DNA of 64,000 bases from an uncultured Planctomycetia bacterium (lineage in GTDB: Bacteria > Omnitrophota > Gorgyraeia > Pluralincolimonadales > Pluralincolimonadaceae). Under the pieces are notes generated by a model. It had not been told where the DNA came from and searched no databases. It saw nothing but the letters and a program-made list of their open reading frames with translations. The stretch lies in NCBI GenBank assembly GCA_964650515.1, contig CAZYUB010000006.1:13858-77857 (forward strand), written 5' to 3'. Each line of letters begins with the position of its first letter. Within the stretch, counting starts at the first letter, position 1. The translations under genes were made by a program, and so were the position numbers. Shown piece after piece: positions 245 to 57,434 of this stretch.

Positions 245-246
245 GG

Positions 247-32059: not shown

Positions 32060-33273
32060 CATTAGCCGCGTTCATAGCGGTTGCTGCATTCCTGTCCGCG
32101 GAGGTGCTGGTCCGCGAGAGGGCCCTGAAGAAGCCCGAGACGATACAGAATATCGCCTTCACCAAAGGGACGACGGTGTATTTCGACGAATCCGGACGGC
32201 TGCAATTCGCGAGCCTCGGCGCCGACCAGCAGGTCATGGGCATCAGGTTCGCGAAAAGCACGTCCGTCTATTTTGACGGTTCCGGAAGGATCGAGTATGC
32301 GTACCTCGCAGCCGACCAACAGGTACTCGGATTGGACGTAAAGAGAGGGACCTCGGTATATTTCACGAAGAGTGGCAGGCTGGATTATATTATAGTCACG
32401 GGTGACGAGCAGATAGGCGGCCTGCTTTGCGCCAAGGGCTCAAAGGCGGGTTTCTATGAGTCGGGTAAACTCCGTTATGCCACGCTCGGCAAGGACCAGA
32501 TGGTCCAGGGTATAACCTGCGCGAAGGGCTCGATAGCGGGTTTCTATGAGTCGGGTAAACTCCAGCACGGGATATTATCCGGCGATTCGTGTGTGCAGGA
32601 TATAATGTTCGCGAAGGGCACCTACCTTCTTTTTTATGAGACGGGCAGCATAAAGAGCGCGTACCTGGTTGCGCCCACCGAGATAATGGGTATTGTCTGC
32701 GCGAACGGCCCGAGCGCGAGTTTTTACGAGAACGGGAAACTTGACTGGGCCGTCCTCGCGAACGTAAGCGAGGTCCAGGGGATATCCTGCGCGAAGGGCT
32801 CGACGATAGGGTTTTATAACACCGGCAGGCTGCAGTATGCCACGCTGTCGTACGAACAGGATATCGACGGCATCACCTGCGCTAAAGGCACGAAGGCCGG
32901 TTTTTACCAGTCAGGCAAACTCCAGTTCGCGACCCTTGCGTCAGACCAGCAGGTTTTCGGGGTCCCGTGCGCAAAAGGAACGGTAGCGGGCCTGTATGAG
33001 AACGGCAAGCTCCAGTATGCGACCCTAAACGCCGACAGGGAGATAAACGGCATACCCTGCGCGAAGGGAACGAAGGTCGATTTTTATGAGTCCGGAAACC
33101 TGCAGAACGCCACGTTGTCCAAGGACCATAAGATAGGGAAGACCGATTGTCCTAAAGGAGCGGTCGTCGGTATACGCGAATCCGGCACGCTCAAGTACCT
33201 GATATCCGGAGGATCGAAGGTGAGCTTCGACGAGAACGGAAACCGGAGAGATACCGAAAAGACCGCGGATTAA
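32041..33273 (+). CDS. Secreted tandem-repeat protein (MORN-variant/YwqK-like 23-aa repeats, ~15 copies).
   Basis: Signal peptide, then repeats with consensus CAKG(T/S)xAGFYESGKLQYATLxxDQxVxGI. TTG start overlapping the GGDEF gene 3' end. Confidence 0.6.
   Translation: MRRTALALAAFIAVAAFLSAEVLVRERALKKPETIQNIAFTKGTTVYFDESGRLQFASLGADQQVMGIRFAKSTSVYFDGSGRIEYAYLAADQQVLGLDVKRGTSVYFTKSGRLDYIIVTGDEQIGGLLCAKGSKAGFYESGKLRYATLGKDQMVQGITCAKGSIAGFYESGKLQHGILSGDSCVQDIMFAKGTYLLFYETGSIKSAYLVAPTEIMGIVCANGPSASFYENGKLDWAVLANVSEVQGISCAKGSTIGFYNTGRLQYATLSYEQDIDGITCAKGTKAGFYQSGKLQFATLASDQQVFGVPCAKGTVAGLYENGKLQYATLNADREINGIPCAKGTKVDFYESGNLQNATLSKDHKIGKTDCPKGAVVGIRESGTLKYLISGGSKVSFDENGNRRDTEKTAD
32150..33230. repeat. 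Intragenic tandem array of ~69-bp units encoding the 23-aa repeat. Some copies carry 28-bp exact identity.
   Basis: gcgggtttctatgagtcgggtaaactcc occurs identically at ~32441 and ~32543. Confidence 0.6.
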
Positions 33274-33312: not shown

Positions 33313-33341
33313 TTGACGGCCTTCCGTACGAGTAATACAAT
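33313..33341 (+). promoter_or_regulatory. Sigma70-like promoter, TTGACG-17-TACAAT.
   Basis: TTGACG at 33313-18 and TACAAT at 33336-41. An RBS GGAAGGAGAG lies upstream of the ATG at 33374. Confidence 0.5.
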
Positions 33342-33373
33342 TATATACGAAATATGAGGGAAGGAGAGTCCAT

Positions 33374-33568
33374 ATGGACACAGGCACGAAGTACATAACT
33401 ATGGATGAGGTCACGAATTACTTAAGCCTCAGCGAGGGAAGTATCCGTAAGCTTATACGGGAACAGAGCTTTCCGCATGTTAAGGTCCTGAGAAAGTACC
33501 TGTTCAATAGGCAGGATATCGATGAGTGGCTTAAGATGCATTCGCAGGGCCTCAGGGCGAAAAAGTAG
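33374..33568 (+). CDS. Small HTH DNA-binding protein (excisionase/MerR-like HTH_17 family).
   Basis: 64 aa. ITMDEVTNYLSLSEGSIRKLIREQSFP is a helix-turn-helix. No adjacent integrase. Confidence 0.6.
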   Translation: MDTGTKYITMDEVTNYLSLSEGSIRKLIREQSFPHVKVLRKYLFNRQDIDEWLKMHSQGLRAKK

Positions 33569-33592
33569 CATTACCTAACCATAAAAGGGGTC

Positions 33593-36500
33593 ATGCTAAG
33601 CCAAAATTGCAGTAAATATGTTATATCCATATCTATCGCGCTCGCGATATCATTCCCTTCGATATCGTGTTCCGGCGGCGAGGAGTTAGATTACAATAAA
33701 CTTTCGCTTGAAGCCGCGCTGAACATTATGTATGAGATAGACCCCGAAATACAGTCAAGTAAACTTGCCGTAGATTCCGCCCATCTCGAGATAAGGGCGA
33801 GGAAACTTGATACGTTCCTCCCGAAGATAAGCGCGGGCGCCACGCTTGTAAAACCGGTAAACGTCTTCTCCTCGCTTGAGCAGCAAAAGGAGATGTTCTT
33901 TGAGCAGCAGCTCGTAATAGAATTCGCCGTTACTTCTGACAGCCTGAAACAAATTGCCAGGGAAAGGAAGAATTACGAAACAAGCATGCTCGAGCTGAAA
34001 CAGGACATATCTATCAAGAGCCGCAGGCTGATCGCCGTATATTACGCGGTCGCCAGGGCGCAGGAAAACTACAGGTCAAGCTGCGATAATGTCGAGACGA
34101 TCGAGAAATATTTAAAGGAAGTGGAGAACAGCAATGAATATTCGGAAGTGGAGAAGTTCGAACTGAAGAACTATCTCGGGGTAGTGATCGAGGAAAAATT
34201 GGGGGCGTTGAACACGCTTATCAATACGAGAAGGGACCTTCGCGGGCTTCTCGGGCTTGAGGACAGGGAAGACATCATAATAACGGTCGAGGAACTCCCG
34301 GATAACATAAACAAGGACGCGGCTTTTGCGGAAAACCCGTTCATCAGGCCGGTAGACTATACGATGGACATATACAAGAAAAGGGAGGAAGCGGCTGGCA
34401 TCGCCGCTCGTATCAGCGCGTCGCCCCTGTTGGGGCTTTCGTCCTCGACTATCTTCGGAATAGGCGAAGGTAAAGGGACGAAGTTCCAGAAGAAGGCGAT
34501 AACGGATACCCAGGTGGAATTATTCTTAACCGACTTCGGCTATACCGCGGGGTTGAATAATGCCGGAAGGATCGGGTCGCAGATAGCCCGGCTCGAGCTG
34601 CTGAAGGCCGAGGAGGACCTGGAATACGCGGACCGCATAACGAGCGATAAGCTCTCCGAGCTGAGCGCGCTTATAGATAATTACAGGGATTATATAACCA
34701 AGACCGAAGATACTTTCAGGATGTTCAAGGAGCGGCTGTCCCTGCCTGTTATCGAGATAATAAGGATGAACGATAACATATATAAAGCGAGGTACGCGCT
34801 GCAGCAGGCGCTCGTTGATTATACGGTCATGCTGTCCAAGCTTAACGGTGTCGAATTGAAGCCGGAGCAGTCGAGCCCGCAGTACCAGGATATGGGCCTT
34901 GAGGACCTTTTGGCAAGGGGAGAGAGGAGCGATATCCTTACCGCAAAGCGGGTAGCCGAAAATAAGCTCAGGATGGAGAACGTCAGGGTCAAGGCCATGA
35001 AGGCGGGATACCTGCCGAAGATAACCGGGGCCGCGGTGCTTGAGAACGCCAATATAGACGGCACGCCGTACACGAACACGAGGGCTTATCTCGCGCTCGA
35101 AGCCCGCCTTTTTAACGGTAAGACCGGCCAGGCAGTGAAGGCGGCAAAGGCAGGCGCGGAGGCGGCGGGATACGAGGGGGCCGCGTTACAGAACTATGTC
35201 GCGGACGAGATAATAAGGAATTACCTGGCGATATTAAGGAACAAGAACACCTTAAAGAGACTGGAAGAGATAAAGGAGATAAAGGCCGGCATTGTCGGGC
35301 GCATGATGGAGGAGGCGCAGGGCGTAAACCCGAAATACAGCAATTCGGACATACTCCCTCTTGTCCTCCAGCAGATGGAGCTCGACAGGGTCATGGCGGA
35401 TGTGGAGTTCTCGCTGGCGGTGGTCGAATACGACCTGAAGAGATGGACAGGCATACCGCTCAACGAAAATATAAGCGTGAAGGAGCTGCCGGGTTTCGGG
35501 ACAGACGAAGGCCTCTCGAAGTTCAAGGCGCTCATCAGCTCCAGGGTGGCGCCGTATTTCGACGGCAAGGCCCCGGTCAAACAGGCCTTCAGCGCGGTCG
35601 AGAAGAACAGGGCCGGGGAGGCGCAGGCCGTCGCGTACGAAGGCGCGCTCTTAAATGTGAAATACGAGACGAAGGGGGCGGATTATTACGGATGGAAGAA
35701 CCCGGACAAGCAGTTGTCTTTCAGCGTCTCCGTGCCGTGGGGCGACCGCCGGGAGCGGCTGGCACAGTCGGACGCTTCAAGGGCGCGCATCAGGTCCGAG
35801 ATAGAGTATATAAAAAGCATGGATGAGTATGAAAAGGAAAGGCTGGCCGTAAAGACCGCTTATGACGCTTCGAAGGAGCTTATCGAGAACCTGCGCAGCA
35901 AGATGGAGAACATGGAGTCGCAGTACCGCATAACGGACGAGCTTTACAGGTTCGGCGGCAGGACGCAGAGGCAGATGGTCGACGCGAAGCTGGATTATAC
36001 CGTGGCCTGCATGAGCTATGAGGAAGCGGTCCTTGACAACTATTACCATAACGCGAGGGAGATACTGATTGTAGAGAAGGACGCGGGGCCCGAAGGCGGC
36101 GAGAAGATACTTCTGTCAGGGCTGCAGGAAGCGATAGACATGGCGCTGGAGAACAGCCGGCAGGTCAGGAAATACGAAGAGTTGCTCGAACTGGAGAAGG
36201 AGACGCTCAAGTACTACAAGACGTTCAGGGTGAAAGGTGACATTATCGAGAAGTACTACAGGATAGACAATAAGGGTTGGGAAAAACAGAAGGACCTGCT
36301 TACGACAGGTGCCGTAACGACCGTTGAAGCGGACCTTGTGAATAAATTTATGAGCAAGAGGCAGCAGCGAAGGATCGAACTGGCGGAAAAGGACGTGGTC
36401 CAGGCGAAGTTCGACCTTACCCTGAAGGTCGCGGACGCGTATTCCGATTACCTCGGCTCCCTGGCCGAAGCGTCTGAAGTCGAGGCGGAATATGAAAAGC

Positions 36501-37408
36501 AGAAGACGGTCCTCGCGGAGATGGAAGAGCTGTTCAGGGCAAAGGCGATAGCGCATGTCGACCTCTTAAAGCAGAGGGAGTTCGTCGAGAGCATGTATCA
36601 GAAATATATAGACATCAACAGGTATACCGAAGGATACAGGAACAACCTCGGTATAGCGGTCGGAGGCCTCGATCCGCGGTTCTCGATAGTGAATACCGAG
36701 GTCTACGACAAGTCCGCCAAACGAGTCGCCCTTACCGGGGATTTTGAGATTAAGCAGAGGTTATTGGACGAGCTGACCGCGGCGAGGCAGTCGCTGCAGG
36801 GTCCGTTGACGGACGACCTGCTGGAACGCGCGGAAATCGATATAAGCATGGCCAGGCTCGATACCGAAGCCATATCAAAACAGATCAAGACGCTTGCGAT
36901 AAACCTCGAGTATAATTACCTTACCGATTATATGGGATTATTGACCAAGGATGAGGCCGCTTTCTCGCGTTATGATAACATGTCGGAATTTATCTCGCTG
37001 AACTCGATGGACAAGATATTTGATCCCGTGACCGGCACGAAAGCGAGAGTCGCCGCAATAAAGGAGAAGGTGGCGGCGTTGAGGTCTAAATCATACACGA
37101 AGGACGTGGTCCAGGACGCGTTGAGGAGGTTTACAGATTACCAGATAGCCGTTGCCGACTACGGGAACTACGAAAAGCACGAGTCGGCGCTGGAAAAAGA
37201 GATGTCAGAGAAGATGCGTATAGAAGAGGCGGCCGGAGAGACGGCCCTGATCAGGCAAAGGGAGCTGAAAGAGACGGTGCTTAACAACAAGATCAATAAG
37301 ATACAGGCGTTCTACCGCATGATGAAATTTATGAACGAGCTTGACCGTTATCTGATAAGATATACGTCAAAGGGGATAGAATCATACGTAACGTTCACGG
37401 ATAAATGA
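33593..37408 (+). CDS. Giant TolC-like outer-membrane efflux lipoprotein (1271 aa, internally duplicated OEP-like modules).
   Basis: Lipoprotein-type signal (…SFPSISCSG). An OEP N-terminal signature LSLEAALNIMYEIDPEIQ, and a second one at LSGLQEAIDMALENSRQVRK (~36110). Extended coiled-coil content. Confidence 0.6.
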   Translation: MLSQNCSKYVISISIALAISFPSISCSGGEELDYNKLSLEAALNIMYEIDPEIQSSKLAVDSAHLEIRARKLDTFLPKISAGATLVKPVNVFSSLEQQKEMFFEQQLVIEFAVTSDSLKQIARERKNYETSMLELKQDISIKSRRLIAVYYAVARAQENYRSSCDNVETIEKYLKEVENSNEYSEVEKFELKNYLGVVIEEKLGALNTLINTRRDLRGLLGLEDREDIIITVEELPDNINKDAAFAENPFIRPVDYTMDIYKKREEAAGIAARISASPLLGLSSSTIFGIGEGKGTKFQKKAITDTQVELFLTDFGYTAGLNNAGRIGSQIARLELLKAEEDLEYADRITSDKLSELSALIDNYRDYITKTEDTFRMFKERLSLPVIEIIRMNDNIYKARYALQQALVDYTVMLSKLNGVELKPEQSSPQYQDMGLEDLLARGERSDILTAKRVAENKLRMENVRVKAMKAGYLPKITGAAVLENANIDGTPYTNTRAYLALEARLFNGKTGQAVKAAKAGAEAAGYEGAALQNYVADEIIRNYLAILRNKNTLKRLEEIKEIKAGIVGRMMEEAQGVNPKYSNSDILPLVLQQMELDRVMADVEFSLAVVEYDLKRWTGIPLNENISVKELPGFGTDEGLSKFKALISSRVAPYFDGKAPVKQAFSAVEKNRAGEAQAVAYEGALLNVKYETKGADYYGWKNPDKQLSFSVSVPWGDRRERLAQSDASRARIRSEIEYIKSMDEYEKERLAVKTAYDASKELIENLRSKMENMESQYRITDELYRFGGRTQRQMVDAKLDYTVACMSYEEAVLDNYYHNAREILIVEKDAGPEGGEKILLSGLQEAIDMALENSRQVRKYEELLELEKETLKYYKTFRVKGDIIEKYYRIDNKGWEKQKDLLTTGAVTTVEADLVNKFMSKRQQRRIELAEKDVVQAKFDLTLKVADAYSDYLGSLAEASEVEAEYEKQKTVLAEMEELFRAKAIAHVDLLKQREFVESMYQKYIDINRYTEGYRNNLGIAVGGLDPRFSIVNTEVYDKSAKRVALTGDFEIKQRLLDELTAARQSLQGPLTDDLLERAEIDISMARLDTEAISKQIKTLAINLEYNYLTDYMGLLTKDEAAFSRYDNMSEFISLNSMDKIFDPVTGTKARVAAIKEKVAALRSKSYTKDVVQDALRRFTDYQIAVADYGNYEKHESALEKEMSEKMRIEEAAGETALIRQRELKETVLNNKINKIQAFYRMMKFMNELDRYLIRYTSKGIESYVTFTDK

Positions 37409-40400
37409 GCGGGGACATGTTAATAAGAGCAAGAAAGATATTTGTCATACTCATAGCGGCGGCGGCCGTCCTTTTCACGGCGCGTTCATGTGTGCGCCGT
37501 CTCCCGGATGCGGATGACGCAGCCGGCAAGCAGCGGCCCGCTGCAGCCGATGCCGCGCGCGCCGGGAACCCTCTCGACCATCCGGCGCAGAGAGATACCG
37601 CGATAAACGCGGGTGAGCTCGTATCCTTCATCCTGGAATGGTCGAACCCTGAGACCGGCCTCGTCCCGACAATGATATCGAAGAGCGGCACGAAGAACCC
37701 TTTCGCGGACATGACCTACTCTTACGCGCAGGCGGTCGCCCACCAGAATCTCTTGATGGCCGGGCAAACGGACATTTCCTTGAAAGCCGCGGAAGTGTTA
37801 AGGCAGAGAGGCGAGGCGCGCGACATCCCGAACGGGCTTAATACGCGCACCGGGTTAAGCGAGGACCCCCTGATAACAGCCGGGCCGAACGCGTACTGGG
37901 GCATAAGTTTCATCAGGGAGTACAGGTTGGCAGGCGACGAGAAGTGGCTGGTTGCAGCTAAGCGGCGCGCGGATTTCCTGCTGAAACTGCAGGCGGATAA
38001 CGGCGGCATACGCAAGAGCCCTTACCAGGGCAATATAGAATACGAGGCGAAATCCACCGAGGAGAACCTCGATTGTTACGCGCTGTTCGACCTGCTGTCG
38101 CAGCTCACGGGTGAGGAGAAGTACGCCACGGCAAGATCAAGGATACTCGGCTGGCTCTCCGCGAGCGGTGTGTACAACAAGGATGCGGGGTATTTTACGG
38201 CCGGCACATCCAAGGACGCCGTGAATCCCATTTATGCTACCGACGCGAACGCGCTCGCAATAATCATACTCGGCCCTGAGCTGCTCGATTCCGAAGGCGA
38301 GGTCCGGTTCGGCGGGGCCGGAACAAGCCGCAGGATATTGGACAGCCTTGATGCGGCCAGGGTGAAAGTGGATTATCTCCACCCGTCCGGCATCACTGTA
38401 AAAGACCTAGAAGGGTTCGATTTTACCGATAAGCTCGGCAGGCCCGGCAGGAAACCCGTCCTGAGCCCCGAGTTCACTTCCCAGGCGGTGCTGGCATATC
38501 TGGTGATGGCGAGGCATGCGAAAGAAAAAGGCGATGTCGAATATTCGGCCAAGCTTATAGAAGACGCGCGCCGTTATCTCGATAACCTCGGAAGGATGGC
38601 AGCGCGCACAGGGAAGTCGGCGTCCCTGCCTTATGCCTCGGAGAAAGGGATAAGGCGTTATCCCTTCGACAACTGGCTGACGCCTCAGGGAGACGCGGAT
38701 ATATCGGCGACATGGGCGTCGTTCCCGCTGTCGGGGTTCAACCCGTTTGCGCTTGAAGGGTTCGGGCTGCGAGATGCGATGAAGGATTCCGCGGAATGGA
38801 TGTCCGATACAGGCGAAGCCATAAAGCCGGAAAAATCTTTTGTTGTCCCCGAACCGGAGAAGATCGTGTCGGAAGCCGAGCTCATCGCCCAGCAGGAAGC
38901 GGCAAGGGAAGAGGCGATGAGGAAGCCGATCGTGTATTATAAGGTCCTTTACGACCAGGTCAATAAGGACGCGACTATCGCGAGAAGGAGGGTGATAGCC
39001 GTCCTGATGACAAGCTACAATTGCTGGTTCGACGGCGTGCTGGATACGGCGTCGCGGGACTATGACGTGATCGGCGTCGACGGAAATTACAAGGTCTTCT
39101 ATAAGAGATTCCAGGACCTTCCCGAAGCTACGAGGAAGGCCGTGCAATCGGAATATTCCTATCTTGACGAGTCTACGGGTATCAAATGGAGGATGGCCCC
39201 TAAGTACAATTTGAGCCTCGACGGGCAGTATAAGCCGTATTACGCCTTCGAGATGGACGGCGATTACAACATAATCAGGCAGTTCGCGTCCGAGAGCGAC
39301 GTCCCTGAAGAGAACAGGGCCGACCTGAAGAACGTAAAAGCCCAGTTCCAGTCCTCCAGCGGCCTTCCCGAAGGCCACCTCATAGCGAGGTATTTCACCG
39401 CGCTCGAGGTGGACAGCGAGATGAATATAATGGACTATTACGAAGCGATAGACGACCTTCCGGGCCTCGTCTCCAAAGTCCCGATTAGCGAAGATGAGTT
39501 CAGGAGGTATACCAAGGCGAAGGACTGGGAGAGGCAGGACCTGGTCTCCGCCGGCATCATCCCCGATGAAAAAGGCCTGCTTGCCGTCCAGGAGAGAGGC
39601 ATATATTATGCAAAGGTCCTCGGCCTCGATGAGACAAGGAGGCTGCGCGTAGGCGGCGTCTCCGTAGCCAGCGGACGCGAGATAATCATGGGAACCAGGT
39701 TCAGCCTGACGAACTGGCGCATCGGGGAGGCATCGAAGACGAACGCCGTCAAATATGAAATAGGGCTCATAAAGGGCATGGTCATAAAGCCGCGCGAACA
39801 GTTCAGCGGAAGCGGCCCATCGCCGACACAGCCGCTTTGGATATACCTCGGGGAAGACATGATCGCCTCAGAGACCGCGGAATTCAAGAGGAGGCTCCTG
39901 GACCTGCTGAAGCGCATCAAATCGGAGAAGGACGCGCAGACGCGCCTAGAGCTCGTGGAACAATACGACCGGCTGGCCGGAGAGCTCGCCTGGTACGACG
40001 AGAACGGGCTCATTCATGTCATCTATTACGGCGCAAAAGCCGCCGAGAAGAGGTTCGGGGATTTCGCATCTGCGAAGGCAAGGGCGGAGAACAGCCTGAG
40101 GACCTACGAATCGATCCTGGGCAGGGACCAGCTCGGGCGGGACCTGCGCGATTCATACGGGCGCGTCTGGCTTAAGGTAATAAACGAGGCGACCGGCCGC
40201 ATATTATACGTCGAAGTCTATGATATGGCGGGAAACCTCGAGACGATATATTCCGGGGAGATCGATATCGACCCGCTCACTAAAGAGGTCAGGTCCGAAA
40301 TAAGGACCGACCTCGAATACGACAAGGATACCCTGCAGGTCGTCGGCAGCCACACATACCGCACCGATGAGAACGGGGACTGGGTCTCCGACATATCCGA

Positions 40401-43400: not shown

Positions 43401-46400
43401 CCTCTGGGGCCTCTTCAGCATATTCGTGATAATCTGGACCGTCAGGATCATAAGCAAGCTCACGTTCGTGAACGCCGGATGGGGCCTGTTCATCAACGCG
43501 AGCGCGCTGCTGCTTACGTTCACGTTCATACTGTCGAGCTTCTTCTCGCTCTTCTATATCATAATAGCGTTGATAGGGTTCTACCGCGGCAAGAGGGAAG
43601 GCGTAGGCCAGGTCATATCATGGATCCAGATGAGGAGGAAGTTCGAGGCCTCAAAGCGTCGTTTTGGGCAGGTCATCGCGCCGGCCGAAACGCTATGGAG
43701 GTCATATTGGAATCTGATGATAAAAGAGCTTTACGATTATTATGTCATCAGCGCTCCGGAGAGGGATGCCCTCTCGTATTCCGAGAAAAATACAGCGCCG
43801 AAACTCGAGGGGCTACCGCGCGCAGATGAGGCCTCCGAAAGGATGCGCCTCTATGTCAACAGCTGGCTCATGGAGATGCCGAAGGCGTGCTCCTGGAACG
43901 ACCTGCCGACGTTCACTGCGATGGTGACGGCGTTCAATGAACCGGTCAGCTTCTCGTTCGATGAGCTCAACGGCTGCGACAGGGGCGCCGAAGTCACGAG
44001 GCTCAACCACCTGATCGGGTTCTACAGGCCGCAGTGGGAAGAGTTCGTCGGCCGGCTCGATACCGCCGACCTCGGGCAGTATATCACGAGGGAGCAACTG
44101 AAGCTGCTCTTCGGCCTGAAGAAACTGCCCGAAGGGTTGCCGGAACAGCTGAAGGAGAAGATCAGGAAATGGGCAAACCTCACGGTCCAGTGCGTCGAGA
44201 AAACGGCCGTGGAGGTATACAGGATACGCGATGCCTTTGCCGCCTATGCCGGGGCGTGCTATCCCGGCGCGTCCGCCGCGGACATAGAGGAGCTCGTATC
44301 CCGCAAGGTCCAGATACTGCTTAATTACGAGGGGTTCCACAGCCCTGCGACCCGCGATTACGACAGGGAGTCCCTGAAGAGGCTCATGAAAGAGCTTCCG
44401 CGGTTGGATGTCTATTGGGCGGCGGCAGAGGGCGACGATAAGGGCCTCGACCGCGGGCTCCACCGCTATAACCCGGCGACGGACGGCATCGAGCTTATAG
44501 AGACCGCGCCGTTCACCGCTACGGTAAAGAAAGGCAAGCCGAGCGGCCTGAACCAGGCGCTGCCGTTCGTGAAGGGCGAGACGGTCCTCTTCTTCGACGC
44601 GAACTGCTCGGTCAGGATAGAGGATGCCCTGAAACTTCCCGTCGCGCTTTCCGAGTTCGCGGACGACCCGTCGCTCGGAGAGGTCCTGTTCGCCGAGTAC
44701 ATATTCAACAAGAACTATTCATGGATCTCGCAGGCGATAGGTTTCAACGAGGAGACATTCGTCTCGGTAACGCAGAGGACGTTGAATATCTTCCAGGCCT
44801 GCGGTTTTTACGGCCACAGCGCGATAATAAAGACGGACATGATCACCGCGGCCTGCGGCCTGCCGCAGGATTATATATCCGAGGATATACTGCTGGCCAC
44901 GGCATTGTGGAAGAAGGGGCTGAAGACCTCGCATAAGGAATACCTGACTTTCGGCAAGGGCAGGGAGACATCGTATTTTACGAGTTTAGTGCCGCTGACG
45001 AAATGGGCAATGGGCTCCTCCGACGCCGCGATAGGCCGCGTCATGCGCGGCATACTCGACTCGCGGAATATCCATGTCGCGCAGAAGTTCATGCTGATGT
45101 TCGGGTTCTCGTTCTTCTACCAGACCCCGCTGATGTTCGTGATAAATTTCCTTTACCTGTGGCTTATGATCTGCTGGGGCATAAACGGTTTCATGGCGGT
45201 CCCGTACCCGATCGTCTTCGGCATCCTCGGCCTGCTCTTCAACCAGGCGATAACAGCTACCGGCGTCGCGTATCTCGTGGAGCATTACGGCTTCAGGAGG
45301 TCCTTCTCCGCATACATGAAGCTTGTCGCGAAGAACCACTTCTTCTACGCGTCGGTCATACCCGCGTACGCGTTCGGTTTCCTCGCGGGCCTGAAGGGAA
45401 AGGCGGTCTTCATCATAAGCCCGAAGGGATGGAACCTCGGCCACCTGCCCCTGAAAGTAATATGGGGGGAGAAGAGGGCAATACTGAAGGCGGCATTATT
45501 CAGCACGATGGTGGGCCTCCCGCTTGCGTACCTGCTTGTGTCGGCCGAGATGGTCCCTTTATGGATAAGCCCGTTCATACCGTTCCTGCCGTTCGCCGTC
45601 GTGGCGGCGATGTACGCGGCGGGCCTCGAATGGAAAAAGACGGGCTTGGGTTTCCTGAAGGACTGGCGCGACGAGATCGTCCCCGACGGGGATATCCGCA
45701 AGATGTCCGTGATAAAACTGCAGATGATCTACGCGATGGTGCTGCTCGTCTTCACAGGGGTCGGCTTCGTCATGTGGGGCCTCATATTCTCGTCGCTGGC
45801 GGTCAAGGCGCTGTTCATATTCTCGGTCCTTTATATAAGCACGACGATGTCGTTCATAATAATGCCGCTCTTTGCGCATTCCCAGCCGGTCGCGCTGTTC
45901 AAGGAGATAACGATATCGAAGTTCTGGAATTATGCGGCGATACCGGCGCTGTTCGCGAGCATCGTTTTCGGCGCTGCCTCTATCTTATCGAGCCCGGCTA
46001 CGGCTTCGCCCGAATCGGTCGTCTATACGCTTCTCGGCATATCGTTGCTTGTCGGATGGGCGCTGCTTAAATGGAAACTCAGCGGGTACGCGAGGCTTGA
46101 CAGGTGGCTAAAGCAGAACCTGGCCGGGTACGCCGGCGCGCCCGCGTACCGTAAAGCAGACCTGATGGATGACGTATACTTCGCGCACCAGGAGCTGATA
46201 CAGGGCGACAGGCAGGAGGAGTTGAGATATAAAAGGAAAGCCGGGAAGGCCAAGGCGGTGTTCGTGTTCACGCTGTCTGCCGCGCTGCTGATGTATTTCG
46301 CGTCGGAATTCTACCCGAGGTTATTCAGAAACTGGATATGGCTCCTGATAGCGGCCGAGGCGGTCTATTTGCTGATACTCAACGTCGAGCACACGAAAGA

Positions 46401-46629
46401 CGACAGGATATACCTCGGCAAGCTCTACGGCGGGATAATTATAAATGACTTCAACAGGCTCAACGAAAATGTCAGGGCCATGGAAGATATCTGGAAGAAA
46501 CTGGACAGGGTATACAAGGCCAGGCTCGTCAGGATCTACGAGGACGAATTAAGGGCCAAGAGGGCGATGACCGTTTACATGTCCAGGTGCATCAGGTCTT
46601 GGGAGGCGGGGCAGCAGAGGCCTACCTAG
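37405..46629 (+). CDS. Giant (3074 aa) multi-domain membrane polysaccharide synthase-like protein. It combines an N-terminal (alpha/alpha)6 glycosidase-like domain, a long central region, and a C-terminal polytopic GT2-type processive glycosyltransferase core.
   Basis: The start overlaps the TolC-like stop (ATGA). GT2 motifs: KPSGLNQALPFVKGETVLFFDAN (K-G-LN-AL…FDAD-like, ~44533), ISEDILLATALWKKGLK (TED-like, ~44876), and LTKWAMG (degenerate QxxRW, ~44995). Over 20 predicted TM helices flank the core. Confidence 0.6.
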   Translation: MSGDMLIRARKIFVILIAAAAVLFTARSCVRRLPDADDAAGKQRPAAADAARAGNPLDHPAQRDTAINAGELVSFILEWSNPETGLVPTMISKSGTKNPFADMTYSYAQAVAHQNLLMAGQTDISLKAAEVLRQRGEARDIPNGLNTRTGLSEDPLITAGPNAYWGISFIREYRLAGDEKWLVAAKRRADFLLKLQADNGGIRKSPYQGNIEYEAKSTEENLDCYALFDLLSQLTGEEKYATARSRILGWLSASGVYNKDAGYFTAGTSKDAVNPIYATDANALAIIILGPELLDSEGEVRFGGAGTSRRILDSLDAARVKVDYLHPSGITVKDLEGFDFTDKLGRPGRKPVLSPEFTSQAVLAYLVMARHAKEKGDVEYSAKLIEDARRYLDNLGRMAARTGKSASLPYASEKGIRRYPFDNWLTPQGDADISATWASFPLSGFNPFALEGFGLRDAMKDSAEWMSDTGEAIKPEKSFVVPEPEKIVSEAELIAQQEAAREEAMRKPIVYYKVLYDQVNKDATIARRRVIAVLMTSYNCWFDGVLDTASRDYDVIGVDGNYKVFYKRFQDLPEATRKAVQSEYSYLDESTGIKWRMAPKYNLSLDGQYKPYYAFEMDGDYNIIRQFASESDVPEENRADLKNVKAQFQSSSGLPEGHLIARYFTALEVDSEMNIMDYYEAIDDLPGLVSKVPISEDEFRRYTKAKDWERQDLVSAGIIPDEKGLLAVQERGIYYAKVLGLDETRRLRVGGVSVASGREIIMGTRFSLTNWRIGEASKTNAVKYEIGLIKGMVIKPREQFSGSGPSPTQPLWIYLGEDMIASETAEFKRRLLDLLKRIKSEKDAQTRLELVEQYDRLAGELAWYDENGLIHVIYYGAKAAEKRFGDFASAKARAENSLRTYESILGRDQLGRDLRDSYGRVWLKVINEATGRILYVEVYDMAGNLETIYSGEIDIDPLTKEVRSEIRTDLEYDKDTLQVVGSHTYRTDENGDWVSDISESIFKGYTPDKKYFVSEVHIFERGEDGRIIFEDGKARYTKKIEYYTPEGDISAQMVKNIITIVRYGANREVVKEVFLERPGKTLTGENTDLDNLTQGLAWVRRYKTTGKILTFKDALVKSLTSLPEEDRETTALLILNRLGAEKVGRISDTLMLEENEVTNNLTGDPAAPGEAPYFVFYEPGDSLGRQRLIVRGGTMEVPVDWIPEADIPSKTLTFNLAGELVSISDVDSSVRADSVLPPGYIERVAPLGINADTLLPQMKKRIFRMVTGDDGLPHFTNTVAITTVSYMIPDDVLGRELLNVKFVMLGDETTLHNGSTLKLKRNIFGKDTLIESWKDERGEARTRAIAKKEDTVVYEWYKEGLDAGELRERLKSECGKLVKREILEEALVNVAESPFGTMPGYHVIKPNGRIGEIKYFSGTVEYPRSVFSHAGVKVPYESEAPPFKLPDGPAIRGVKYGVLNSDYAFYDVHSLSGQLIVLERRFIILRLMNILPVQGGRQTEYYDPLVPYSYLRPIKIERDFRPGTQPEGTQPGTQIVAVFIGDASIYHRNGWQTQTFLERRPFDIEHWIRSDYEFDDNGVYKFKKEHIESSSIYLMRSIEWQKPLAFFALVAGLFFLAGYVSRRRLRAGRESRINAACAASRPFSREMLARLSVPEELKAACIKVYEGREPASGLFAASEKVFRPRIEECLRGFGADPAEHTASVNVLLDRIACRLGREEINLSNLFAAEAKEFVEWSKRNGHSVSIAAGKTGTDDLSLIVLFRLVFDESMEFRAAVTGFRYYLFDKSLVLLAAGRKGDILREIRGDTLAFLEALRPGYDKKLGLIKEYIFTYDDMNELFEGKRPGFIASFARLEGKTAAQKLSWLASKAGKDAAADVMSYKSYAWLKTFPDKAGVPQFVSNLRRFWGFLVPMFAAVTLGGVAIALKRIPFAQRLEGAMGPVGAAFVEVTALILIGLVITMAFMKGTLGDYKPAPKGAAGNKELRRSIRLFWIMYGSASYLWGLFSIFVIIWTVRIISKLTFVNAGWGLFINASALLLTFTFILSSFFSLFYIIIALIGFYRGKREGVGQVISWIQMRRKFEASKRRFGQVIAPAETLWRSYWNLMIKELYDYYVISAPERDALSYSEKNTAPKLEGLPRADEASERMRLYVNSWLMEMPKACSWNDLPTFTAMVTAFNEPVSFSFDELNGCDRGAEVTRLNHLIGFYRPQWEEFVGRLDTADLGQYITREQLKLLFGLKKLPEGLPEQLKEKIRKWANLTVQCVEKTAVEVYRIRDAFAAYAGACYPGASAADIEELVSRKVQILLNYEGFHSPATRDYDRESLKRLMKELPRLDVYWAAAEGDDKGLDRGLHRYNPATDGIELIETAPFTATVKKGKPSGLNQALPFVKGETVLFFDANCSVRIEDALKLPVALSEFADDPSLGEVLFAEYIFNKNYSWISQAIGFNEETFVSVTQRTLNIFQACGFYGHSAIIKTDMITAACGLPQDYISEDILLATALWKKGLKTSHKEYLTFGKGRETSYFTSLVPLTKWAMGSSDAAIGRVMRGILDSRNIHVAQKFMLMFGFSFFYQTPLMFVINFLYLWLMICWGINGFMAVPYPIVFGILGLLFNQAITATGVAYLVEHYGFRRSFSAYMKLVAKNHFFYASVIPAYAFGFLAGLKGKAVFIISPKGWNLGHLPLKVIWGEKRAILKAALFSTMVGLPLAYLLVSAEMVPLWISPFIPFLPFAVVAAMYAAGLEWKKTGLGFLKDWRDEIVPDGDIRKMSVIKLQMIYAMVLLVFTGVGFVMWGLIFSSLAVKALFIFSVLYISTTMSFIIMPLFAHSQPVALFKEITISKFWNYAAIPALFASIVFGAASILSSPATASPESVVYTLLGISLLVGWALLKWKLSGYARLDRWLKQNLAGYAGAPAYRKADLMDDVYFAHQELIQGDRQEELRYKRKAGKAKAVFVFTLSAALLMYFASEFYPRLFRNWIWLLIAAEAVYLLILNVEHTKDDRIYLGKLYGGIIINDFNRLNENVRAMEDIWKKLDRVYKARLVRIYEDELRAKRAMTVYMSRCIRSWEAGQQRPT

Positions 46630-48001
46630 TATTGTAGCTTTCCTTCAAAACTTCGTGGTAGTAGAGCCAATCGTCGCTTACCTTCTTCATCGCGCTGTAG
46701 AGGTTCCTGTAATCGTCGTAGATATCGCATTCGAACTCGATATTACGCCTTCCGCTCAGGAAGTGCGCGAAGAGCTTGTAGTTCATCTCCTTGCGCAGGA
46801 AGTTCTTCTTCTTCAGCGCATAGAAGAGGGAGCCGCTGCCTTCGAAGCAGTTCATTATCCTTACCCATTCGCAGGCGATGAATATGCAGTTCTTATAGCT
46901 GCCGAAGAGGTCGACCGTGTCGCAGTCGATGAAGACGCATGATTCGAGCTTGCTCGACGGTTTTATCTTCTTGCTCCTGACGAAATAGTTGCCGTTCTCG
47001 TCCGGCTTGGATATCTGCGCGGTCAATTTGCGCAGCAGCTCGAGGTAGGTCATTATGTTCGAAGCCCAGTCGATCCAGTAGCCCTTGGCGATGGCGCCGC
47101 CGACGCTGATCTCGTATTGCTGGAGGCATTCCCTCATCGCGAGCTGTATCTTCGACAGTGCCTTCTTCTCGAGGACGAGCGACTCGCAGATGAGCTTGTT
47201 GAAGCTCCATTCGGTCGCGTTCAGGTGTGAGATGAAGTCCTTGTTCTTCTCCTTGGAGCAGAAGAGGTCGACAGCGCTCTGCATCTTATCCAGGTTCTCT
47301 TTTGTCGTGAAGAGCTGGAACGTATTCGCGAGCGTCATGCCTTTTGAATACTTCGGTATCAGTTTTTCATCGAAGGTCTTCTCGTAAAACGACGATATGC
47401 GGTTATCCGCGTCTATCTTCGCCGTGCCGAGGCTTCCAAGGGCCCTATTCACCTGTATCGGGGTCAGCAGCATGGAAGCGGAGTGTGAGTTGAGCGATTT
47501 CAGCAGTCCGTTTATGTCCACATCGGCATAATCGAAGCACTGGTCGATCGGAAGTATGATGACCGTATTTTTCAAGAGGGGGATGCTCTTCGCGATGCAC
47601 GGGAGAAGCATGTCCGGCGCGCGGCCCTCGGGGAACCTTATGCTCGCCTTTGAAGGCGTGCCGAACTCGTAGGAGAGGGGGAATATCCTCGTGGCGAGGC
47701 CGGCGTCGTGGATATATATTATGGTGTCGAAGGAATCGAGCTTCTTTTTGGAAAGAAGCTTCTTTATGCGCTCGTGTGTCTTCAGGTAGCCGGTAAGGTT
47801 GCCGCGGGTCTGGCCCATCTCGGCCATCCCGACAAGCTCGACGTCTATAGTCTTATTATAACGCTCCCTGAGCTTCTTCTTGAAGAGCTGCTTGAGGTCG
47901 AGCGAGAATTCAAGCTTATCGTAAGAGTTCAGGACGAGCAGGACCCTGTCCGCGACCTCATTTTTTACGCTTAAGTTCTCCAACGGAGCCGTTTTAGCCA
48001 T
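46622..48001 (-). CDS. Sugar-1-phosphate nucleotidyltransferase-like protein (459 aa). Convergent with the giant gene, overlapping it by 8 bp.
   Basis: HDAGLATRIFPLS…KASIRFPEG…MLLPCI resembles the GxGTRxxPxT nucleotidyltransferase signature. Lys-rich, with somewhat lower GC than the neighbours. Confidence 0.5.
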   Translation of the reverse strand: MAKTAPLENLSVKNEVADRVLLVLNSYDKLEFSLDLKQLFKKKLRERYNKTIDVELVGMAEMGQTRGNLTGYLKTHERIKKLLSKKKLDSFDTIIYIHDAGLATRIFPLSYEFGTPSKASIRFPEGRAPDMLLPCIAKSIPLLKNTVIILPIDQCFDYADVDINGLLKSLNSHSASMLLTPIQVNRALGSLGTAKIDADNRISSFYEKTFDEKLIPKYSKGMTLANTFQLFTTKENLDKMQSAVDLFCSKEKNKDFISHLNATEWSFNKLICESLVLEKKALSKIQLAMRECLQQYEISVGGAIAKGYWIDWASNIMTYLELLRKLTAQISKPDENGNYFVRSKKIKPSSKLESCVFIDCDTVDLFGSYKNCIFIACEWVRIMNCFEGSGSLFYALKKKNFLRKEMNYKLFAHFLSGRRNIEFECDIYDDYRNLYSAMKKVSDDWLYYHEVLKESYNTR

Positions 48002-48008
48002 TTACGAA

Positions 48009-48037
48009 AATATACCCTTTTTTGTTAAAAAAGTCAA
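48009..48037 (-). promoter_or_regulatory. Minus-strand promoter TTGACT-17-TATATT. The transcript would be nearly leaderless for the 48001 start codon.
   Basis: Reverse complement of 48032-37 is TTGACT. Reverse complement of 48009-14 is TATATT. The ATG is at 48001-47999. Confidence 0.4.
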
Positions 48038-48052
48038 GCATTTTGGCTTACC

Positions 48053-48081
48053 TTGACTTTTCTAACCCTATGTGGTATACT
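48053..48081 (+). promoter_or_regulatory. Plus-strand promoter TTGACT-17-TGgTATACT (extended -10) for cvpA.
   Basis: TTGACT at 48053-58 and TGGTATACT at 48073-81. Confidence 0.5.
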
Positions 48082-48107
48082 TTCTTCCAAATATCAGGAG
48101 AGTGATC

Positions 48108-48638
48108 TTGCCGGAAGCGGTCCAACGCATAAATTGGGTTGATGTCTTAACCGTAATCCTTTTGTTAAGAACATGTTATATCGGCGCTAAGACGGGCCTG
48201 TCTGAAGAGGTATTCAGGATAATCGGAGTTGTCTTCGCCCTGTATATTTCGATGAGTTTTTACTCTCCGCTCGGTAGCAGGATAAACTCGGGTTTCTCGC
48301 TGCCCCAGGAACTTGTCGACGGGGTTTCTTTTTTAATTCTAATTTTACTGTGTATGTTAAGTCTTAAGTTAGTCGCCCTCGGCGTGACTAAAGTCGTCAA
48401 GCTCGCGTTTGCCGACAAGATAAACCAGTGGGGCGGTTTCATATCGGGATTGCTGAGGGGCGCTATTCTCCTCAGTATGCTCTTTACGCTGTTCGGGATA
48501 TTGCAGGTGGATTACCTCGTTAAGTCGGTCGAAGAACGTTCCCTGACCGGCCCGTATATAAGCAGGATCGCGCCGTACGCATACCATGTCGTCGCAAGGA
48601 ACTCCCCCGAAGCTATAAAAATAGAAGAACAAAAATAA
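48108..48638 (+). CDS. cvpA: Colicin V production protein CvpA family membrane protein.
   Basis: INWVDVLTVILLL… is CvpA-like with 4 TM segments. An RBS AGGAGA at 48096-101 suggests a TTG start at 48108. The track ORF begins at GTG 48072. Confidence 0.7.
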   Translation: MPEAVQRINWVDVLTVILLLRTCYIGAKTGLSEEVFRIIGVVFALYISMSFYSPLGSRINSGFSLPQELVDGVSFLILILLCMLSLKLVALGVTKVVKLAFADKINQWGGFISGLLRGAILLSMLFTLFGILQVDYLVKSVEERSLTGPYISRIAPYAYHVVARNSPEAIKIEEQK

Positions 48639-57427: not shown

Positions 57428-57434
57428 AATTTCC

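What the first reader, a model, noticed from the sequence alone, without database searches (positions are those of the whole stretch)
33313..48110. Giant-gene polysaccharide synthesis and export module: HTH regulator, 1271-aa TolC-like lipoprotein, 3074-aa synthase, and a convergent nucleotidyltransferase
A 64-aa HTH gene with a near-consensus promoter is followed 25 bp later by a 3.8-kb TolC-like outer-membrane gene. The stop of that gene overlaps the start (ATGA) of a 9.2-kb gene. Its product has an N-terminal six-hairpin glycosidase-like domain and a C-terminal processive GT2 core (K-G-LN-AL…FDAD, a TED-like ISEDILLA…WKKG, and a QxxRW-like LTKWAMG) embedded in more than 20 TM helices. The 3' end of this gene overlaps by 8 bp a convergent gene with a sugar-1-P nucleotidyltransferase signature. 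Together these supply the substrate, polymerise and degrade it, and export it. I do not recognise this arrangement as a described bcs, pel, psl, alg or cgs type system.
Basis: partly seen in the sequence, partly recalled or inferred. Interest (0 to 1): 0.9.

Follow-up and report, generated by a model that had tools for sequence, protein, structure and literature searches.

The report
Bacterial callose-type glucan synthase with duct
An uncultured Omnitrophota bacterium pairs a 3074-residue enzyme, whose catalytic core belongs to the beta-1,3-glucan (callose) synthase family of fungi and plants, with a triple-length TolC-like outer-membrane channel; I found no description of this kind of sugar-polymer export machine in the literature I could search.

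Summary
The interpretation needs one major correction. The catalytic core of the 3074-aa protein is GT48 (FKS1/callose-synthase type), not GT2. It scores 83.7 bits on Pfam Glucan_synthase, and a family profile hits yeast FKS1 at 7e-21 against BcsA at 1e-5. The GT48-specific D-A-N motif and 12 of 15 FKS1 active-site residues are kept.

The 1271-aa partner holds six tandem OEP half-repeats, where TolC has two. It is probably a single-chain version of the TolC trimer.

Wherever upstream DNA is held, across loci down to 43-46% synthase identity, the long OEP gene lies directly upstream of the synthase. A remote GlgC-like protein (the 459-aa gene) and a dCache-HAMP-GGDEF plus repeat-protein pair stay linked but change position. 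The HTH gene is found only in close relatives.

Best reading: an envelope-spanning, probably c-di-GMP-controlled, beta-1,3-glucan synthase and exporter. Product and export route are inferred. Both AlphaFold models failed.

The family is almost confined to Omnitrophota. It is annotated as GH76 or GT2, and no paper I could search describes it.

The parts
30482..32059 (+). Membrane sensor diguanylate cyclase (dCache-HAMP-GGDEF). It has a GGEEL active-site variant and an intact RESD I-site.
   Evidence: Pfam GGDEF 6e-44, dCache_1 9e-18, HAMP 8e-11. Sequence. Homologues lie next to the synthase either upstream (L005) or downstream (L001, L014).
32041..33273 (+). Secreted repeat protein: a signal peptide followed by about ten 37-residue MORN-variant repeats. 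It overlaps the GGDEF gene by 19 bp and travels with it.
   Evidence: Pfam MORN_2 1e-8. Sequence. Homologue directly after the GGDEF gene in L001, L005 and L014.
33313..33341 (+). Sigma-70-like promoter candidate, TTGACG-17-TACAAT, 32 nt upstream of the HTH start codon.
   Evidence: 10 of 12 matches, but 1.1 such sites are expected by chance in this stretch.
33374..33568 (+). 64-aa excisionase/MerR-type HTH protein. It is a lineage-specific local regulator at best.
   Evidence: Pfam HTH_17 1e-11, TIGR01764 8e-12. Present in L005/L006 (74% lineage) but absent from the same position in L001, L004 and L027.
33593..37408 (+). 1271-aa outer-membrane-factor (TolC-family) protein made of six tandem OEP half-repeats. 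It has a signal peptide with a conserved Cys26 (probable lipoprotein). Proposed to be a single-chain, pseudo-trimeric exit duct.
   Evidence: Pfam OEP 8.9e-19. The first to fifth sixths hit OEP separately at 29, 19, 29, 25 and 14 bits. The fifth repeat scores 30-33 bits in homologues, and the sixth 15-17 bits in L001. Six hairpin-like segments start near aa 76, 277, 474, 685, 878 and 1101. Always directly upstream of the synthase.
37405..37476 (+). Synthase N-terminal signal-anchor helix (aa 6-24).
   Evidence: Hydropathy scan.
37477..38844 (+). Periplasmic six-hairpin (alpha/alpha)6-like domain (aa 25-480), distantly GH76-like.
   Evidence: Pfam GH76 25.0 bits against a cutoff of 25.9. Family profile vs Bacillus GH76 mannanase structures 1e-7 over about 88 residues. 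The domain recurs in other GT48 giant proteins: P0063, P0032, P0059.
38845..42204 (+). About 1120 residues of conserved periplasmic sequence (aa 481-1600) with no detectable relatives.
   Evidence: No Pfam hit. No PDB hit with family profiles. Conserved across the family.
42211..42267 (+). Second TM helix (aa 1603-1621), which returns the chain to the cytoplasm.
   Evidence: Hydropathy scan.
42268..43122 (+). Cytoplasmic accessory region (aa 1622-1906), shared with other bacterial GT48 proteins.
   Evidence: No PDB or Pfam match. phmmer hits in 11 other GT48-domain proteins.
43123..43581 (+). TM bundle preceding the catalytic domain (aa 1907-2059, 4-6 helices).
   Evidence: Hydropathy scan. 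The family-profile alignment to FKS1 starts in this region, at FKS1 residues 556-601 onward.
43582..45084 (+). GT48 (FKS/callose-synthase-type) catalytic domain (aa 2060-2560), with K2378, D2398-A-N2400, E2431, H2471, S-E2493-D2494, K2518-G-R2520 and K2533.
   Evidence: Pfam PF02364 1.3e-23, 83.7 bits (gathering cutoff 37.2). phmmer vs FKS1 1e-10. Profile vs FKS1 6.6e-21, BcsA 1e-5. Residue map, using the active site listed in PMC10499315.
45085..46386 (+). C-terminal TM bundle (aa 2561-2994, about 10 helices). Presumed glucan channel.
   Evidence: Hydropathy scan. Strong conservation.
46387..46629 (+). Conserved cytoplasmic C-terminal helical tail and stop codon.
46622..48001 (-). 459-aa cytoplasmic protein remotely similar to glucose-1-phosphate adenylyltransferase (GlgC). 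Proposed role: supply of NDP-glucose, or regulation.
   Evidence: TIGR02091 glgC 8e-4. Four of six family members hit glgC (best 2e-4) and Pfam NTP_transferase (best 1e-3), all far below cutoffs. The motifs AGLATRIFPL, SFYEKT and GYWIDW are invariant or nearly so. Linked to the synthase in different positions in L001, L017, L018, L021 and L027.

Best explanation
This is a chromosomal, envelope-spanning synthase-and-export system of an Omnitrophota bacterium, most likely for a beta-1,3-glucan.

Shown:
- The 3074-aa protein carries a GT48 (FKS1/callose-synthase-type) catalytic domain between two TM bundles.
- Ahead of that lie a roughly 1580-residue periplasmic module, held by a TM helix at each end and beginning with a six-hairpin domain, and a 285-residue cytoplasmic accessory region.
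- The gene immediately upstream, coupled by an ATGA overlap, encodes a TolC-family protein with six OEP half-repeats in one chain.
- The long-OEP plus synthase pair is invariant in the family. A GlgC-like protein and a dCache-HAMP-GGDEF plus repeat-protein pair stay linked but change position.

Inferred:
- The GlgC-like protein makes, or gates the supply of, NDP-glucose.
- The GT48 domain polymerises it processively and threads the chain through its own TM channel, as FKS1 and BcsA do.
- The periplasmic module receives the chain (the six-hairpin domain binding or trimming it) and docks 1:1 onto the periplasmic end of the single-chain duct. That duct forms by itself the 12-stranded barrel that three TolC protomers normally make, and releases the glucan outside.
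- c-di-GMP from the neighbouring sensor cyclase switches the system on. No receptor site was found.
For: GT48 identity:
- Pfam Glucan_synthase 83.7 bits against a cutoff of 37.2, while GT2 models fall below cutoff.
- phmmer vs yeast FKS1 1e-10 against BcsA 5e-6. Family profile 6.6e-21 against 1e-5.
- The D-A-N motif and 12 of 15 FKS1 active-site residues are identical and invariant in the family.
- Eukaryotic GT48 proteins are retrieved by the family profile at 1e-27 to 1e-51.
- Foldseek on the poor model returned only Fks1/Fks2 below E=1.

Six-repeat OEP: with weak TolC/OprM/CusC fold hits, each covering about one third of the chain.

Linkage:
- The long OEP gene lies directly upstream of the synthase in L001-L012 (except L006, not needed), L015, L016, L019 and L027, that is in every locus that holds upstream DNA, down to 43-46% synthase identity.
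- The GlgC-like gene is linked upstream and co-directional in L001, and convergent downstream elsewhere.
- The GGDEF pair is upstream in L005 and downstream in L001 and L014.

Glucose and beta-glucan context: a GH16 gene beside the pair in L004, and phosphoglucomutase in L001. The only models the 459-aa protein hits are GlgC models.

The six-hairpin domain recurs in other GT48 giant proteins.

The module sits among core genes (Fab genes, ETF, DnaG, RpoD), so it is not contamination or a mobile island.
Against: - No structure: both AlphaFold2 models were unusable (mean pLDDT 49 and 42). The GT-A fold, the channel and the single-chain barrel therefore rest on sequence alone.
- Linkage specificity of the product cannot be read from sequence. 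Three FKS1 active-site positions differ (D1080 to K, K1172 to N, N1220 to S).
- The internal OEP repeats do not detect each other, and the sixth repeat is only weakly supported.
- A TolC-type duct exporting a polysaccharide, with no periplasmic adaptor protein, has no precedent that I know of.
- No PilZ or other c-di-GMP site was found in the synthase.
- The GlgC-like assignment is far below every family cutoff, and a profile search of the PDB was not significant.
- No expression data.
Confidence: 0.55

Rival explanations
1. One reading: a new type of GT2 (cellulose-synthase-like) processive synthase. Its own N-terminal glycosidase degrades the polymer, a standard TolC lipoprotein exports it, and the HTH protein controls it.
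For: BcsA and Glyco_trans_2_3 are matched (E 5e-6 and 7e-6).
Against: GT48 models and FKS1 score 15 orders of magnitude better than BcsA. The DxD position reads D-A-N, the GT48 hallmark (PMC10499315). The OEP protein has six repeats, not two. The HTH gene is missing in distant family members.
Confidence: 0.08
2. The GT48 synthase makes a glucan that stays in the envelope, as a periplasmic or wall-associated layer or a sheath primer. The long OEP protein is a trans-envelope structural anchor, or serves another export task, and is not the glucan's exit.
For: There is no precedent for polysaccharide export through TolC-type ducts and no adaptor gene is present. The 1580-residue periplasmic module could itself retain or organise the polymer. 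Other GT48 giant proteins of Omnitrophota lack any long OEP neighbour.
Against: The long OEP gene is invariably adjacent and often translationally coupled across 43-90% synthase identity. That argues for a 1:1 physical partnership. Six OEP repeats amount to a complete duct.
Confidence: 0.2
3. The GT48-like domain has diverged in function and makes a different glycan (another linkage, a mixed or branched glucan, or a glycolipid or protein glycan). The 459-aa protein is then a regulator rather than a nucleotidyltransferase.
For: Identity to FKS1 is low. Three of 15 active-site residues differ. The family is deeply diversified: D-M-N, D-I-N, D-S-N and D-A-D variants occur at the DAN position among relatives. 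The 459-aa protein is far below GlgC cutoffs.
Against: The donor- and acceptor-site residues that matter in FKS1 mutagenesis are kept. Neighbouring genes point to glucose and beta-glucan: GH16, phosphoglucomutase and GlgC-like hits.
Confidence: 0.15

Closest known systems
Fungal FKS1/FKS2 and plant callose synthases (CAZy GT48; PDB 7XE4, 7YUY, 8JZN)
   Same: The catalytic domain is homologous over FKS1 residues ~600-1274. It shares the D-A-N motif, the E-D acceptor motif, K-x-R and the IF2 lysine, and it is inserted between TM bundles.
   Different: The host is bacterial. There is no FKS1_dom1 hit and no match to the FKS1 N-terminal accessory domain or C-terminal TM region. A 1580-residue periplasmic module is added. 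The genomic partners are an outer-membrane duct and a GGDEF cyclase, in place of Rho1 GTPase control.
Bacterial cellulose synthase system BcsA-BcsB-BcsC-BcsZ (GT2, c-di-GMP activated)
   Same: The logic matches: an inner-membrane processive synthase-translocase, a large periplasmic part, an outer-membrane exit, an (alpha/alpha)6 glycosidase-fold component (BcsZ, from my own knowledge), and a neighbouring c-di-GMP source. BcsA is a detectable distant relative (1e-5).
   Different: The family is GT48, not GT2. No PilZ domain was found. The periplasmic part and the six-hairpin domain are fused to the synthase. The exit is a TolC-type duct, not a TPR plus 16-stranded porin.
Curdlan synthase CrdS of Agrobacterium (the known bacterial beta-1,3-glucan synthase; GT2)
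   Same: Predicted product and substrate class.
   Different: CrdS is a GT2 enzyme with a DxD motif (my own knowledge; see also PMC6821405 on GT2 beta-glucan synthases). It has no GT48 signature and no long OEP partner.
TolC / OprM / CusC outer membrane factors (Pfam PF02321)
   Same: OEP repeats with a helix / beta-hairpin / long-helix pattern, and an N-terminal signal peptide with a Cys.
   Different: There are six repeats in one 1271-aa chain instead of two per 430-490-aa protomer. No adaptor (MFP) or ABC/RND/MFS pump gene is nearby. The partner is a glycosyltransferase.
Giant proteins of Omnitrophota (West-Roberts et al. bioRxiv 10.1101/2023.11.21.568195; Seymour et al. PMC10066038; bioRxiv 10.64898/2026.06.07.730766)
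   Same: Same phylum. The proteins are very long and multi-TM with large extracytoplasmic parts. Many relatives of this GT48 domain sit in proteins of 5000-7900 aa.
   Different: Term searches of those papers found GT1, GT5, starch-synthase, adhesin and dockerin content, but no GT48/glucan-synthase domain and no TolC partner.

Membership tests
GT48 (1,3-beta-glucan synthase, FKS/CalS) | Significant match to the family model PF02364 above its gathering score | tested here: met
   83.7 bits against a cutoff of 37.2, E 1.3e-23, aa 2138-2587. The same domain is recorded for all family members.
GT48 (1,3-beta-glucan synthase, FKS/CalS) | D-A-N motif in place of the GT-A DxD motif (metal-independent; PMC10499315, PMC12715860) | tested here: met
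   D2398-A2399-N2400 aligns to FKS1 D1102-A-N1104 and is invariant in 12 homologues.
GT48 (1,3-beta-glucan synthase, FKS/CalS) | FKS1 active-site residues shown by mutagenesis to be needed | tested here: met
   12 of 15 are identical: E851, K1082, D1102, N1104, E1155, E1173, H1195, E1221, D1222, K1246, R1248, K1261. Three differ: D1080 to K, K1172 to N, N1220 to S.
GT48 (1,3-beta-glucan synthase, FKS/CalS) | GT domain inserted between two TM bundles that form the glucan channel | tested here: met
   TM helices at aa 1907-2059 and 2562-2994 flank the domain. The channel itself was not modelled.
GT48 (1,3-beta-glucan synthase, FKS/CalS) | N-terminal FKS1_dom1 / accessory domain and Rho1 regulation | tested here: not met
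   No PF14288 hit. The cytoplasmic region aa 1622-1906 has no PDB match. This is typical of eukaryotic members and is not part of the CAZy family definition.
GT48 (1,3-beta-glucan synthase, FKS/CalS) | Makes beta-1,3-glucan from UDP-glucose | not testable with these tools
   Needs biochemistry.
GT48 (1,3-beta-glucan synthase, FKS/CalS) | GT-A fold resembling FKS1 | tested here: inconclusive
   AlphaFold2 mean pLDDT 49. Foldseek still returned only Fks1/Fks2 at E 4e-5 to 7e-4, but with TM-scores near 0.2.
GT2 processive synthases (BcsA/CesA type) | Family model above threshold, with DxD, TED and QxxRW motifs | tested here: not met
   Glyco_trans_2_3 26.4 bits against 27; CelA 17.6 against 699. 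The motifs read D-A-N, S-E-D and T-K-W.
Outer membrane factor (TolC family, PF02321) | OEP repeats above the family threshold | tested here: met
   68.5 bits against 22. Repeats 1, 3 and 4 pass singly in the window protein, and repeat 5 passes in three homologues.
Outer membrane factor (TolC family, PF02321) | Two OEP repeats per protomer, three protomers per channel | tested here: not met
   Six repeats in one chain, about 205 aa apart. This makes it a variant architecture.
Outer membrane factor (TolC family, PF02321) | 12-stranded barrel plus a long helical tunnel | tested here: inconclusive
   AlphaFold2 pLDDT 42. Foldseek hits to TOprJ1, CusC, TolC and OprM at E 0.01-0.3, each aligned to about 320-390 columns.
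Outer membrane factor (TolC family, PF02321) | Genomic partner adaptor (HlyD/AcrA type) and inner-membrane pump | tested here: not met
   None in the window neighbourhood or in related loci.
Sugar-1-phosphate nucleotidyltransferase (GlgC / PF00483) | Family model above threshold and a GxGxR...K signature | tested here: inconclusive
   Best scores 13-19 bits, against cutoffs of 21 (Pfam) and 425 (TIGR02091). GlgC models are the only consistent hits, in 4 of 6 members. The signature is degenerate: A-G-L-A-T-R...K. Profile vs PDB GlgC 0.86.
GH76 alpha-1,6-mannanase | Family model above threshold and the catalytic Asp-Asp pair | tested here: not met
   25.0 bits against 25.9. The profile hit covers only about 88 residues. 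The residues just before the aligned block are P161-N162, where I recall GH76 has D-D; that motif position is from memory and was not verified.

The most novel reading that the evidence does not exclude
Omnitrophota harbour a large and ancient radiation of GT48 glucan synthases. The GT48 enzymes of fungi, plants and algae are either one offshoot of it or its sister. This locus would then be the first synthase-dependent polysaccharide secretion system built on GT48, and the first TolC-type duct encoded as a single pseudo-trimeric chain docking 1:1 with its inner-membrane partner and needing no adaptor protein.
Probability: 0.25. Interest if true: 0.9.

Novelty: new variant of a known kind. Interest (0 to 1): 0.78.

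Why it matters
- **GT48 in bacteria.** GT48 enzymes make fungal wall glucan (the echinocandin target) and plant callose. The literature I could search treats them only as eukaryotic enzymes. A diverse bacterial branch with conserved catalytic residues would give the family a prokaryotic context. It might also give simpler, Rho1-independent proteins for mechanistic and structural work, and a way to ask where eukaryotic beta-1,3-glucan synthesis came from.
- **Single-chain TolC.** A single-chain TolC would show that the trimeric duct can be hard-wired into one asymmetric polypeptide. It would extend TolC-type ducts to polysaccharide export.
- **Omnitrophota biology.** For these mostly ultra-small, host-dependent bacteria, a regulated surface glucan is a candidate for a coat, an attachment matrix or a biofilm.
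- **Annotation.** These genes are currently labelled GH76 or GT2 family proteins.

Tried and rejected
- **AlphaFold2, synthase C-terminal 1185 residues** (8-sequence alignment): mean pLDDT 49.
- **AlphaFold2, OEP protein aa 37-1236** (8 close sequences): pLDDT 42.
- **Foldseek on both models** is cited only as weak support.
- **Internal repeat detection in the OEP protein** failed with self-BLAST, hhalign of thirds (E 0.08-0.33) and jackhmmer from repeat 1. Only the general Pfam OEP model sees the repeats.
- **The second homologue search**, with the GT core alone, returned only three fragments.
- **Profiles of periplasmic aa 481-1600 and cytoplasmic aa 1622-1906** found nothing in the PDB.
- **The profile of the 459-aa family vs the PDB** gave only spurious gp41 hits, with GlgC at 0.86.
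- **PilZ-motif regex searches** of the four proteins and of all window ORFs found nothing.
- **Eukaryotic contamination or a mobile island** was rejected: the flanking genes are bacterial core genes and GC content is even.
- **The HTH gene as a core member** was rejected.
- **Literature searches** for bacterial GT48, PF02364 in Omnitrophota, and single-chain TolC found nothing relevant.

Full report
**1. Observation**

- The ATGA overlap (37405-37408) and the 8-bp tail-to-tail overlap (46622-46629) are read directly from the sequence.
- A TTGACG-17-TACAAT site lies at 33313-33341, but about one such site is expected by chance in that stretch.
- Three small errors. The motif is FFDAN, not FDAD. 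The HTH-OEP gap is 24 bp. Hydropathy gives about 16-19 TM helices rather than more than 20.

**2. Organism and setting**

Full-length homologues (43-90% identity, 3035-3136 aa) all come from Candidatus Omnitrophota MAGs. There they are annotated as 'glycoside hydrolase family 76 protein' or 'glycosyltransferase family 2 protein'.

The window is ordinary core chromosome. It carries EF-G, RuvAB, QueA/Tgt, SecDF, RecJ, RecG, PlsX-FabHDGF and acyl-CoA dehydrogenase/ETF upstream, and CvpA, NIF3, DnaG and RpoD downstream. GC content is even. Contamination and a mobile island are therefore excluded.

**3. The 3074-aa protein is a GT48 enzyme, not GT2**

- Pfam Glucan_synthase (PF02364) matches aa 2138-2587 at 83.7 bits (cutoff 37.2). 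The GT2 model stays just below its cutoff.
- Against PDB sequences the single protein finds yeast FKS1/FKS2 at 1e-10 and BcsA at 5e-6.
- A profile of eight family members finds FKS1 at 6.6e-21 (77 bits, FKS1 residues ~600-1274) and BcsA at 1e-5.
- The FKS1 structure paper lists E851, D1080, K1082, D1102, N1104, E1155, K1172, E1173, H1195, N1220, E1221, D1222, K1246, R1248 and K1261 as active-site residues (PMC10499315). Twelve of these are identical here. They include the metal-independent D-A-N motif (D2398-A-N2400) that separates GT48 from DxD enzymes (PMC12715860).
- These residues are invariant in 12 homologues.
This moves the expected product from an unspecified glycan to beta-1,3-glucan.

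**4. Architecture of the 3074-aa protein**

| Region (aa) | Feature |
|---|---|
| 6-24 | Signal-anchor helix |
| 25-1600 | Periplasmic module |
| 1603-1621 | Second TM helix |
| 1622-1906 | Cytoplasmic accessory region |
| 1907-2059 | TM bundle |
| 2060-2560 | GT48 catalytic domain |
| 2562-2994 | About ten TM helices |
| 2995-3074 | Conserved cytoplasmic tail |

- The first 450 periplasmic residues are six-hairpin-like. The single sequence misses the GH76 cutoff by 0.9 bit. The family profile hits GH76 structures at 1e-7, but over only about 88 residues.
- Where I recall the GH76 Asp-Asp pair, the sequence reads Pro-Asn, so hydrolytic activity is unproven.
- This domain recurs in other, larger GT48 proteins (P0063, P0032, P0059). 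That argues for a functional tie to the synthase.
- Residues 481-1600 have no detectable relatives.

**5. The 1271-aa protein**

- Pfam OEP matches at 68.5 bits.
- I cut the protein into sixths. The first to fifth sixths each match the 187-position OEP model (29, 19, 29, 25 and 14 bits).
- In homologues the fifth repeat scores 30-33 bits, and the sixth 15-17 bits in L001.
- Six segments with the OMF-like pattern 'LPxΦxΦxΦ ... turn ... ΦxΦxΦ' start near aa 76, 277, 474, 685, 878 and 1101, about 205 residues apart.
- TolC protomers have two such repeats and three protomers build the 12-stranded barrel. Six repeats in one chain imply a single-chain pseudo-trimer. This is an inference: the repeats do not detect each other and the AlphaFold model failed.
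- A conserved Cys26 after the signal peptide's hydrophobic core fits a lipoprotein, although the -3 residue of the lipobox is atypical.
- A large review of tripartite systems and my literature searches gave no example of a fused TolC.

**6. Linkage**

I used contigs that encode homologues, a scan of one genome per species (19 loci), and phmmer of the window proteins against all locus ORFs.

- **Long OEP gene.** It is directly upstream of the synthase in every locus that holds upstream DNA (L001-L012, L015, L016, L019, L027), down to 43-46% synthase identity and 27-29% OEP identity.
- **459-aa gene.** It is convergent downstream in most loci, including distant ones (L017, L018, L021, L027). In L001 it lies upstream on the same strand.
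- **dCache-HAMP-GGDEF gene and its overlapping repeat-protein gene.** They are upstream in the window and L005, but downstream in L001 and L014.
- **HTH gene.** It occurs only in close relatives.
- **Other neighbours.** L004 carries a GH16 gene and a two-component system beside the pair. L001 carries phosphoglucomutase and a PilZ protein within 7 kb.
- **Specificity of the pairing.** A different GT48 giant protein (P0015, 5338 aa) has no OEP neighbour. The pairing is therefore specific to the ~3.1-kaa subfamily.

**7. The 459-aa protein**

- It is cytoplasmic and better conserved (50%) than the synthase.
- The only models it hits consistently are GlgC models: TIGR02091 8e-4 for the window protein, 4 of 6 members with a best E of 2e-4, and Pfam NTP_transferase in 4 of 6 with a best E of 1e-3. 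All are far below cutoffs.
- The invariant or near-invariant motifs AGLATRIFPL...K, SFYEKT and GYWIDW resemble the GlgC signature blocks as I remember them.
- I treat it as a remote GlgC-like protein. Catalytic competence is open.

**8. Distribution**

- A profile of the GT region was searched against 1.84 billion cluster representatives. It found 800 proteins at E<=1e-3 and 112 at E<=1e-30.
Several bacterial members are fragments or giant proteins of 5000-7900 aa.
- Eukaryotic GT48 proteins appear from 1e-51 (Cyanophora) to 1e-27 (a chytrid FKS).
- A crude neighbour-joining tree of 130 domains places the eukaryote-labelled sequences in one region, among several deep, largely unlabelled clades in which every named member I looked up is from Omnitrophota. 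This is suggestive only. Just the top 150 hits were used, so eukaryotes are under-sampled.
- Labels such as Spirochaetes, Elusimicrobia, Planctomycetia, Njordarchaeales or Dehalococcoidales on a few contigs are probably binning artefacts.

**9. Mechanism**

- Shown: family assignments, conserved catalytic residues, topology by hydropathy, repeat count, and conserved linkage.
- No c-di-GMP receptor site was found.

**10. Comparison and novelty**

- The system works like the synthase-dependent systems (Bcs, Pga, Alg, Pel). It uses a GT48 core, a fused periplasmic part and a TolC-type exit.
- The known bacterial beta-1,3-glucan synthase, CrdS, is GT2.
- Term searches of three papers on Omnitrophota giant proteins found no mention of GT48/glucan synthase or of TolC. 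Searches for bacterial GT48 found nothing.
- I cannot check the CAZy listing, which may hold a few bacterial GT48 entries.
- I rate it a new variant of a known kind. Two elements would each be new if confirmed: bacterial GT48 in an export system, and a single-chain TolC.

Noticed in passing
L024:1-21410, L020:1-12713, L022:1-12599; proteins P0057 (7886 aa), P0094 (7809 aa), P0101 (7525 aa), P0032 (6932 aa): The GT48-like domain also sits inside much larger proteins. P0032 is labelled Omnitrophota, and L024 and L020 come from Omnitrophota MAGs; the other proteins were not looked up. In L024 the reading frame stays open over all 21.4 kb held. One of these giants, P0015 (locus L026), has no long OEP neighbour.
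   Followed up: partly
protein P0071 (Cyanophora paradoxa, 2113 aa): This glaucophyte GT48 is the best-scoring eukaryote (189 bits). It matches the whole bacterial profile, including the TM helices after the GT domain. It groups away from the Tribonema clade in a crude tree, so it could be a transfer or a contaminant.
   Followed up: no
window 30482-32059: The diguanylate cyclase has GGEEL instead of GGEEF/GGDEF, together with an intact RESD inhibitory site. Whether it is active is unclear.
   Followed up: no
window 32041-33273: This 410-aa secreted protein is made of about ten 37-residue repeats (CAKGxxxxFYESGKLxYATL). It overlaps the cyclase gene by 19 bp and travels with it in distant genomes. 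Its function is unknown.
   Followed up: partly
window 61-1323, 1325-4387 and 52984-53913: Three sizeable ORFs (420, 1020 and 309 aa) have no Pfam match at 1e-5.
   Followed up: no
L004:3673-4590 and L001:22214-26686: In distant family members the pair sits beside a GH16 (laminarinase-type) gene and a histidine kinase/response regulator (L004), or near phosphoglucomutase and a 444-aa PilZ protein (L001).
   Followed up: partly
proteins P0017, P0024; loci L014, L016, L019: Close homologues carry the labels Njordarchaeales, Dehalococcoidales, Spirochaetes, Elusimicrobia or Planctomycetia. They are 47-92% identical to Omnitrophota proteins and several lie on short contigs, so mis-binning or mislabelling is likely.
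   Followed up: no
L027:15399-16763: The GlgC-like gene is split into two adjacent ORFs on the minus strand in this contig. This is either a frameshift or a sequencing error.
   Followed up: no
window 57351-57511: tRNA-Met (CAT) and tRNA-Val (CAC) genes lie 7 bp apart.
   Followed up: no
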